A DNA stretch of 45,440 nucleotides from Octopus sinensis (Eukaryota), in NCBI RefSeq assembly GCF_006345805.1, contig NW_021834884.1, forward strand, positions 1 through 45,440, written 5' to 3'. Positions 41,907 through 42,226 of this stretch are shown here, one piece after another (positions within the stretch are counted from its first letter, which is position 1; every line of letters begins with the position of its first letter). The translations under genes were made by a program, and so were the position numbers. A model generated the notes under the pieces. That model saw only the letters and a list, made by a program, of their open reading frames with translations. It was not told the DNA's origin and did not search any database.

Positions 41907-42226
41907 ATTAGGGAATAAATCCAAAATTACAGGGAACAAATCAGATTTAGGATTAAACCAATTTTTAGTAAATATTATATAATATTAATTCGAGACAAAA
42001 CCACTATTTTGCAAATCAAATAAGGAAAGACTTAATCATACAAAAACATTTAAATATCAAGTTTTAAAACTGAATAGAAGATCGGACATCCACCTGACGA
42101 ATGTCATTTGAAGACATGAAACAATTGTAGTGGCGATTTATTTACTTTATATTAAAATTTTTTATGTATTGATTAAGTCTTTCCTTATTTGATTTGCAAA
42201 ATAGTGGTTTTGTCTCGAATTAATAT
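41907..42226 (+). mobile_element. Inverted-arm element with a central HHR, in (TA)n
   Basis: Arms 41982-42046 and 42161-42226 are near-perfect reverse complements, preceded by a ~75-bp unpaired leader. TA tracts on both flanks. Confidence 0.82.
42090..42133 (+). ncRNA. Canonical minimal type I hammerhead ribozyme
   Basis: CCAC CUGACGA AUGUC AUUUGAA GACAU GAAA CAAUUG UA GUGG. Perfect stems I and II, complete core, palindromic CAAUUG stem III, GUA triplet. Confidence 0.88.

What the first reader, a model, noticed from the sequence alone, without database searches (positions are those of the whole stretch)
41907..42226. Textbook HHR in the loop of a 65-bp inverted repeat
Seen: the best-formed HHR in the window (perfect 4-bp stem I, 5-bp stem II, full core). 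Its stem III is the palindrome CAAUUG, which could pair between two molecules. It is enclosed by near-perfect inverted arms. Inference: the transcript would be a long hairpin with a self-cleaving loop, a possible source of dsRNA or small RNAs and an ADAR substrate.
Basis: partly seen in the sequence, partly recalled or inferred. Interest (0 to 1): 0.75.

Follow-up and report, generated by a model that had tools for sequence, protein, structure and literature searches.

The report
Head-to-head Penelope retroelement stump with hammerhead
The hammerhead ribozyme and the mirror-image arms around it are real, but they are most likely the ordinary leftovers of a Penelope-like jumping gene that landed as two back-to-back partial copies, not a purpose-built self-cutting hairpin RNA.

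Summary
A type I hammerhead (HHR) lies at 42090-42133 (+), cut site after A42129; 0 of 300 shuffles gave one as good. The arms are 57 bp perfect and about 82 bp in all.

The reading as a special hairpin RNA is weak. Contigs of four public runs show a very abundant repeat family whose HHR core is conserved. Depth climbs towards the 3' end and drops to near background at the arm/loop junction. Five other inverted joints each break elsewhere, and 4 of 5 lack the whole HHR. In this window a sister copy has arms and no HHR, and another family has its HHR-like motif in the arm.

This is the published anatomy of Penelope-like element (PLE) insertions: HHR-bearing end, inverted 5'-truncated copy, one-sided tail, (TA)n target. 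A palindromic stem III and dimer cleavage are also in print for PLE HHRs. Within the hairpin, a dimer would need all 192 pairs swapped between two molecules.

No RT/GIY-YIG ORF could be linked. Cleavage, transcription and editing are untested.

The parts
41752..41906 (.). (TA)n-type microsatellite, left part of the insertion target
   Evidence: Tandem Repeats Finder array 41752-41908, period 2
41907..41981 (-). One-sided extension ('tail', about 75 nt) at the 3' end of the inverted copy; shared with the sister copy at 33497
   Evidence: BLAST 41904-42069 vs 33497-33655, 76%; alignment; deep cover in 4 of 4 runs over 41900-41947, ending in simple-repeat loose ends
41971..41986 (.). 16-nt perfect AT palindrome at the tail/arm boundary; candidate AT-rich endonuclease site (inference only)
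41982..42062 (-). Left arm: inverted, 5'-truncated copy of the element's 3' end (no HHR); outer 57 bp perfectly complementary to the right arm
   Evidence: carries the same two non-majority letters as the right arm (42021/42187, 42016/42192)
42062..42064 (.). Head-to-head junction between the inverted and the forward copy
   Evidence: arm alignment ends at 42062; summed depth at 42044-42055 is 91, 7 and 57 in X1-X3 against 0.4-1.3 million at 42164-42187; other contigs leave the stretch at 42064
42064..42226 (+). Forward 5'-truncated copy of the element's 3' end (pLTR-like), holding the HHR and the right arm
   Evidence: contigs run continuously from the HHR into the right arm, e.g. records 5, 6, 13, 20, 28
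42081..42137 (+). Type I hammerhead: stem I 42090-93/42130-33, with a 5-nt bulge and a further 4 bp (42081-84/42134-37); core 42094-100; stem II 42101-05/42113-17; GAAA 42118-21; palindromic stem III 42121-28; predicted cut after A42129
   Evidence: no variant at 5% or more in the invariant core, inner stem I or palindrome
42144..42226 (+). Right arm: 3' end of the forward copy
42227..42339 (.). (TA)n-type microsatellite, right part of the insertion target
   Evidence: Tandem Repeats Finder array 42223-42339, period 2

Best explanation
A short, non-coding insertion of a very abundant Penelope-like retroelement (PLE) family in a (TA)n microsatellite. Inferred steps: the element's RT/GIY-YIG protein, made from a full-length copy elsewhere, nicked AT-rich DNA and reverse-transcribed only the 3' end of the element RNA. 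The event left two 5'-truncated copies joined head to head: an inverted one (41907-42062, minus strand) that kept the tail and stopped short of the HHR, and a forward one (42064-42226) that ran 26 nt past stem I. The part both copies share forms the arms; the part only the forward copy has, which holds the HHR, forms the loop. The HHR is the family's standard pLTR ribozyme: in full-length tandem elements it probably cuts the precursor RNA as a dimer or with help from the element's protein. Here it is a passenger. Shown: the anatomy, the family, the varied junctions, the conserved core. Inferred: PLE identity, mechanism of inversion, any cleavage.
For: (1) 4027, 1270, 1008 and 123 contigs of four runs lie on 333 bases; summed depth in X1 rises from 91 at the junction bin through 24,300 (42092-103) and 218,281 (42128-139) to 1.27 million (42176-187), and X2 and X3 show the same overall rise. 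(2) 5 of 5 listed joints link an inverted part to a forward part at other breakpoints; 4 of 5 lack the whole HHR; one (42016/42193) is a palindrome centre. (3) Both arms carry A42187 and A42192, where 95-100% and 68-96% of depth reads another letter, so the arms share one template or were homogenised. (4) The sister copy at 33497-34003 has the same tail and 152-nt arms at 97% with no HHR; an unrelated family at 21774-21971 has its HHR-like motif inside the arm (79 of 92 columns). (5) Published PLE anatomy matches: inverted 5'-truncated copy, tail at one end, (TA)n bias (PMC8557442; PMC3846280; PMC8969392); HHRs with short helix I and small palindromic helix III (PMC4209133).
Against: No RT or GIY-YIG sequence could be tied to the family: 0 of 99 ORF pieces scanned (of 169 listed) hit such a Pfam family, and a 42-aa query from the sister copy found no real relative. 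The tail is about 75 nt, against 30-40 bp in print. Each joint rests on one contig with 20-25 letters on the short side, under the tool's own caution of 30. Depth is no copy number, counts the arms twice (1787 of 4027 X1 contigs fit two places) and may fall upstream through subfamily divergence rather than truncation. A target-site duplication cannot be told apart from the microsatellite.
Confidence: 0.83

Rival explanations
1. A non-LTR retrozyme family (non-coding, HHR-bearing units copied through circular RNA by a PLE enzyme); this locus is a monomer with an inverted fragment, and the HHR cuts efficiently as a monomer.
For: Stem I has a bulge and 4 further pairs (probability 0.79-0.93), and the family's majority letter at 42136 keeps that pair as U-G, closer to canonical type I than to minimal HHRs. 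A 2-bp stem III with a tetraloop is described for invertebrate retrozymes, and the coral and mussel ones cleave as monomers (PMC7229834). No coding partner was found. Retrozymes are argued to derive from PLE pLTRs (10.64898/2026.07.22.740005), so the two readings overlap.
Against: No tandem units here; none of the 5 listed joints goes back as in a head-to-tail array; tail and inverted truncated copy are PLE insertion marks.
Confidence: 0.09
2. One reading: a selected locus whose transcript is a long hairpin with a self-cleaving loop, yielding dsRNA, small RNAs or an ADAR substrate.
For: Very stable hairpin (-111.7 kcal/mol, z -13.8). The arms shield the HHR: stem I pairing is 0.66-0.82 in the hairpin against 0.12-0.15 in the forward copy alone. 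Self-folding palindromic repeats and lizard Penelope elements are heavily edited (PMC5625713).
Against: HHR position relative to the arms varies among copies: loop here, cut or absent in 4 of 5 joints and at 33.5 kb, in the arm at 21.8 kb. One X1 contig over the same junction has better-paired letters at three places, so the window's inner arm looks decayed (only 26 letters beyond the junction). The A>G differences occur in the DNA-type runs too, so they are family variants, not editing. A dimer needs 192 swapped pairs for -5.8 kcal/mol.
Confidence: 0.04
3. A MITE or foldback DNA transposon with the arms as terminal inverted repeats and the HHR captured inside.
For: Near-perfect arms, TA flanks, high abundance.
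Against: A 75-nt family extension lies outside one arm only; arm length and junction differ from copy to copy; contigs run from the HHR into one arm as a single linear unit.
Confidence: 0.04

Closest known systems
Endonuclease-positive Penelope-like element insertions with inverted pLTR and tail (Arkhipova et al. 2013, PMC3846280; Craig et al. 2021, PMC8557442)
   Same: Head-to-head inverted 5'-truncated copy, tail on one end only, AT-rich/(TA)n target, HHR near the 3' end, a palindromic centre at one listed junction.
   Different: Stump only, no ORF at this locus; tail about 75 nt rather than 30-40 bp; clade not assigned.
[quoted passage not shown]
   Same: Type I, inner helix I of 4 bp, small palindromic helix III, predicted double-hammerhead dimer; mostly single motifs in truncated copies.
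   Different: A10.1-U11.1 instead of the conserved G10.1-C11.1; no unpaired base before stem II in this copy; helix II 5 bp; helix I extends through a 5-nt bulge.
Poseidon element of Anolis carolinensis, PAc (Frangieh et al. 2024, PMC11167929)
   Same: HHR upstream of the region that ends in the tail; an AUG at the start of stem II; no junction starts at the HHR cut site here (0 of 6), in line with their finding that HHR cleavage is not needed for insertion in vitro.
   Different: In PAc the ORF begins at that AUG; here the frame closes after 9 codons.
Non-LTR retrozymes (Cervera and De la Pena 2020, PMC7229834)
   Same: Non-coding, low-GC, type I HHR with 2-bp stem III and tetraloop.
   Different: Defined by tandem 170-400 nt units and circular RNAs; this locus is a single unit with an inverted fragment.

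Membership tests
Type I hammerhead ribozyme | Core CUGANGA ... GAAA ... UH with three stems, open at stem I | tested here: met
Type I hammerhead ribozyme | Core conserved among family copies | tested here: met
   Of 10 substitution rows at 5% or more, 3 fall in 42090-42133 (42098 = N7, 42101, 42117), none at invariant core, inner stem I or palindrome; one loop II deletion; only contigs at least 80% alike were laid
Type I hammerhead ribozyme | G10.1-C11.1 pair at the base of stem II | tested here: not met
   A42101-U42117; both positions vary in the family; G-C described as highly conserved in PMC4209133
Type I hammerhead ribozyme | Rfam RF00163 gathering score | tested here: not met
   14.5 bits against 34, E 0.7
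Type I hammerhead ribozyme | Self-cleavage | not testable with these tools
   contigs cannot show RNA ends
EN+ Penelope-like element | RT plus GIY-YIG ORF in full-length copies | tested here: inconclusive
   no genome held; none in 99 of 169 window ORF pieces; no relative of a 42-aa piece
EN+ Penelope-like element | HHR in the terminal (pLTR) region | tested here: met
   HHR lies about 93 nt before the end of the forward copy
EN+ Penelope-like element | Inverted 5'-truncated copy joined head to head, with varied breakpoints | tested here: met
   this locus, the copy at 33497-34003, and 5 single-contig joints
EN+ Penelope-like element | Tail of 30-40 bp at one end only | tested here: inconclusive
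   one-sided extension present in 2 of 2 window copies but about 60-75 nt long
EN+ Penelope-like element | 5' truncation | tested here: met
   depth gradient and staggered joints; divergence may contribute
EN+ Penelope-like element | AT-rich / (TA)n target | tested here: met
   TA arrays on both sides
EN+ Penelope-like element | pLTR plus tail hold the first codons of the ORF | tested here: inconclusive
   one frame is best kept between the two window copies (30 of 38 codons identical, 4 synonymous and 8 non-synonymous changes, against 27 and 25 identical in the other frames) but holds a stop
EN+ Penelope-like element | Target-site duplication | tested here: inconclusive
   only microsatellite matches across the flanks
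Non-LTR retrozyme | Tandem units, each with an HHR | tested here: not met
   single unit; no tandem array over the HHR; no go-back joint among 5 listed
Non-LTR retrozyme | Circular RNA of 170-400 nt | not testable with these tools
   only contigs available
MITE / foldback DNA transposon | Fixed, symmetric terminal inverted repeats | tested here: not met
   one-sided extension and varied arm lengths

The most novel reading that the evidence does not exclude
Head-to-head PLE insertions that happen to leave the whole HHR in the loop turn a poorly folding ribozyme into a well-folded monomer (stem I pairing 0.15 to 0.82). In an editing-rich animal genome a subset of such loci, when inside transcripts, would then cut their host RNA and release an 80-bp duplex with 5'-OH and cyclic-phosphate ends: a recurrent, accidental source of self-opening hairpin RNAs that the host may edit, dice or keep.
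Probability: 0.07. Interest if true: 0.6.

Novelty: new member of a known kind. Interest (0 to 1): 0.2.

Why it matters
As the best reading, little: each part (PLE hammerhead, palindromic stem III, dimer model, inverted truncated copy, tail, TA target) is in print. My searches listed no paper describing HHR-bearing PLEs of octopus, so the family may be undescribed in detail; the host is my guess from recalled repeat content. Useful side: an abundant family with many independent head-to-head junctions is good material for the open question of how PLE inversions form, and this locus is a ready construct for asking whether a flanking hairpin switches a PLE hammerhead on or off.

Tried and rejected
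Whole genome: none held, so copies could not be counted or followed to an ORF. Rfam scan of the whole window: 241 matches, the 150 shown nearly all miRNA-type models on microsatellites and palindromes, none at gathering score. Pattern scans: 0 matches for the tail motif in metagenome contigs; 1 metagenome and 4 viral matches for the HHR core pattern, none showing HHR stems on inspection, the metagenome one inside a bacterial gene, taken as chance. Pfam on 99 of 169 ORF pieces: Tc1/mariner-type and DUF hits only. Protein searches with a 42-aa frame of the sister copy: no candidate; one hit, P0001, a repetitive hypothetical protein at 36% identity, rejected. Earlier findings by place and by sequence: nothing. 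Expression: no RNA holder listed; run X11, a guessed RNA run, has no cover in the junction bin 42044-42055, which is no evidence either way. A>G differences as editing: rejected, present in the DNA-type runs. A competing pairing of the stem I bulge with stem II: rejected, probability 0.01 or less. Target-site duplication: not separable from the microsatellite. A BLAST self-comparison missed the 21.8-kb inverted repeat; a direct alignment found it.

Full report
OBSERVATION. The + strand holds a type I hammerhead: stem I 42090-93/42130-33, core CUGACGA 42094-100, stem II 42101-05/42113-17, GAAA 42118-21, and a GUA triplet with the cut after A42129. It is the only strict hit in the window; 0 of 300 block-wise dinucleotide shuffles gave one at the same stringency, 1 of 300 and 12 of 300 at looser settings. 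Stem III is 2 bp with an AAUU loop, inside the 8-nt palindrome 42121-28. Stem I continues past a 5-nt bulge with 4 more pairs (42081-84/42134-37). Rfam RF00163 aligns to it at 14.5 bits, below the gathering score of 34. The base of stem II is A-U, not G-C.

The arms are perfectly complementary for 57 bp (41982-42038/42170-42226; longest in 200 shuffles 18) and continue to 42062/42144 with 3 mismatches and 2 one-base gaps. The 320-nt stretch folds at -111.7 kcal/mol, z -13.8. The first 75 bases of the finding (41907-41981) lie outside the arms, and TA microsatellites flank the whole.

THE FAMILY IN THE WINDOW. A second copy at 33497-34003 has the same left extension and homologous arms (76-82% to this locus). 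Its arms are 152 nt at 97%, its centre is AT-rich simple sequence, and it has no HHR. Within each locus the arms are far more alike than the loci are to each other, so each inversion was made or homogenised locally. Five other HHR-like motifs, of other families, lie in the window: two in short inserts with direct partial repeats between TA arrays (17985-18495, 31490-32142), one inside the arm of a head-to-head palindrome (21774-21971, 79 of 92 columns), and two related solo inserts (11018-11233 and 33200-33401, 86%).

THE FAMILY IN PUBLIC RUNS. No genome was held. Twenty of 24 listed runs, under four organism labels, hold part of the stretch, none half of its words. I laid 4 of them, all contigs, at 80% likeness on 41900-42232: 4027, 1270, 1008 and 123 contigs fit. 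Summed depth in X1 is about 0.7 million over the extension, 1.2-2.0 million over the left arm, 91 at 42044-55, then 421, 1,467, 4,069, 24,300, 80,357, 167,423, 218,281, 312,542, 497,023 and 1.2 million in successive 12-base bins to 42175; X2 and X3 show the same overall shape, with a dip at 42140-51. The tool warns that depth is no copy number, the arms attract contigs twice, and subfamily divergence can lower depth upstream. Still, the trough marks the junction as rare, and contigs run from the HHR into the right arm as one unit.

Five joints are listed, at 41925/42199, 41957/42149, 41994/42121, 42000/42064 and 42016/42193, each from one contig with 20-25 letters on the short side. Read as inverted copy plus forward copy, all differ from this locus, 4 of 5 lack the whole HHR, one is a palindrome centre, and none of the six junctions (with this one) starts at the cut site. 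Ten substitution rows reach 5%: three fall in 42090-42133 (42098, the free N7 position; 42101; 42117), none in the invariant core, inner stem I or palindrome. The majority letter at 42136 keeps its pair as U-G. At 42187 and 42192 most depth reads another letter (95-100% and 68-96%), yet both arms here carry the minority letter. The A>G rows occur in the DNA-type runs as well, so they are family variants.

WHAT IT IS. In element terms the locus reads: TA array, tail plus inverted 5'-truncated copy (41907-42062, minus strand), junction, forward 5'-truncated copy with the HHR (42064-42226), TA array. The arms are what the two copies share; the loop is what only the longer copy has. This is the described layout of EN+ Penelope-like insertions: an inverted 5'-truncated copy next to the 5' end, a tail at one end and a (TA)n bias (PMC8557442, passages); inverted pLTR with optional tail, head-to-head junctions with palindromes, self-priming proposed (PMC3846280, passages; PMC8969392, passages). 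PLE HHRs with helix I of 4-5 bp, a small palindromic helix III, dimer architecture, low activity in vitro and mostly single occurrence in truncated copies are in PMC4209133 (parts 1-2 of 4). For the Anolis element PAc, reverse transcription starts inside the RNA and defines the tail, the HHR cuts only with protein, is dispensable for insertion in vitro, and no RNA-seq reads end at its cut site (PMC11167929, parts 1-2 of 4). Penelope-like elements are abundant and partly recent in cephalopods (PMC13282606 and PMC8967140, passages); that this window is octopus is my guess from recalled repeat content, not a tool result.

What is missing is the coding partner. None of 99 ORF pieces (of 169 listed) hit an RT or GIY-YIG family. 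One frame through arm and tail is best kept between the two window copies (30 of 38 codons identical; 4 synonymous, 8 non-synonymous changes), as expected if pLTR and tail hold the first codons, but it holds a stop, the signal is weak, and a 42-aa piece found no real relative. The tail is about twice the published length. PLE membership therefore rests on anatomy.

WOULD IT CUT? As a monomer, stem III has pairing probability under 0.02 and the active fold lies 2.7 kcal/mol above the minimum, alone or in the hairpin. Two copies of the 60-nt motif co-fold into the double hammerhead, with stem III and both stems I between molecules, gaining 5.8 kcal/mol. For the whole hairpin the gain is the same but needs 192 intermolecular pairs; I infer that the arms, once folded, block that route. 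Monomer cleavage stays possible: a 2-bp stem III with tetraloop is described for invertebrate retrozymes, and the coral and mussel ones cleave as monomers (PMC7229834, passages and parts 2-3 of 6), and the arms raise stem I pairing from 0.15 to 0.82. Whether the locus is transcribed is untested. If it is, editing is plausible for any such hairpin (PMC5625713, passages), without implying selection.

UNEXPLAINED. All 5 arm differences fall in the inner 24 of 81 columns (P 0.0017 if uniform, computed after seeing the pattern). One X1 contig over 42022-42089 has better-pairing letters at 42052, 42058 and behind 42042; it has only 26 letters beyond the junction, short of the tool's 31. Outer-arm homogenisation, local mutation or an assembly error near a hairpin could each explain it.

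RIVALS AND NOVELTY. A retrozyme reading fails the tandem test here but overlaps with the PLE reading (10.64898/2026.07.22.740005, part 1 of 5). A MITE reading fails on the one-sided tail and varied arms. A selected self-cleaving hairpin is not excluded but has no positive support. My reading was recorded, before one search showed earlier scan notes on similar stumps in other genomes; those are unchecked leads. Searches listed no paper on octopus PLE hammerheads or on hairpin-enclosed PLE hammerheads; the library lacks most subscription papers and I read no supplements, where such families may be listed. Verdict: a real hammerhead in a real hairpin, best explained as a new member of a known kind; interest 0.2.

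Noticed in passing
window 33497-34003: Sister copy of the same family: same one-sided tail, 152-nt arms at 97%, AT-rich centre, no HHR; followed by a 67-nt piece shared with 18542-18608 and a mariner remnant (34244-35203).
   Followed up: yes
window 21774-21971: Head-to-head palindrome of another family (79 of 92 columns) whose arm holds an HHR-like motif with a 9-bp stem I and a CCGACGA core on the minus strand.
   Followed up: partly
window 11018-11233 and 33200-33401: Two related inserts (86%) between TA arrays, each with an HHR-like motif on the minus strand whose core reads CCGACGA instead of CUGANGA; with 21847 that makes 3 of 6 HHR-like motifs with C at position 4. I did not check whether this core variant is in print or active.
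   Followed up: partly
window 17985-18495 and 31490-32166: Short inserts between TA arrays with direct partial repeats (120 nt at 97%; 91 nt at 100%) around an HHR-like motif with a long stem II region: partial-tandem PLE-like stumps of two more families.
   Followed up: partly
window 8064-8290: A 227-nt near-palindromic element with CTAACC-type internal repeats that scores best against miRNA models only because it is a hairpin; MITE-like.
   Followed up: no
window 42039-42062: All five arm-to-arm differences cluster in the inner left arm; one public contig has better-paired letters there.
   Followed up: partly
window 41971-41986: Perfect 16-nt AT palindrome where the tail meets the arm; the sister copy is about 13-15 nt shorter here.
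   Followed up: no
window 9937-10560 and 21152-21398: Several copies of a 180-250 nt interspersed repeat, in tandem near 10 kb and inverted at 21 kb (91-92%); SINE-like by recall.
   Followed up: no
window 229-1007, 26118-27099, 35289-36371, 40209-40824: Decayed ORF pieces that look like non-LTR retrotransposon remnants (by recall) and a Tc1-like transposase (Pfam HTH_Tnp_Tc3_2, E 1.7e-14).
   Followed up: no
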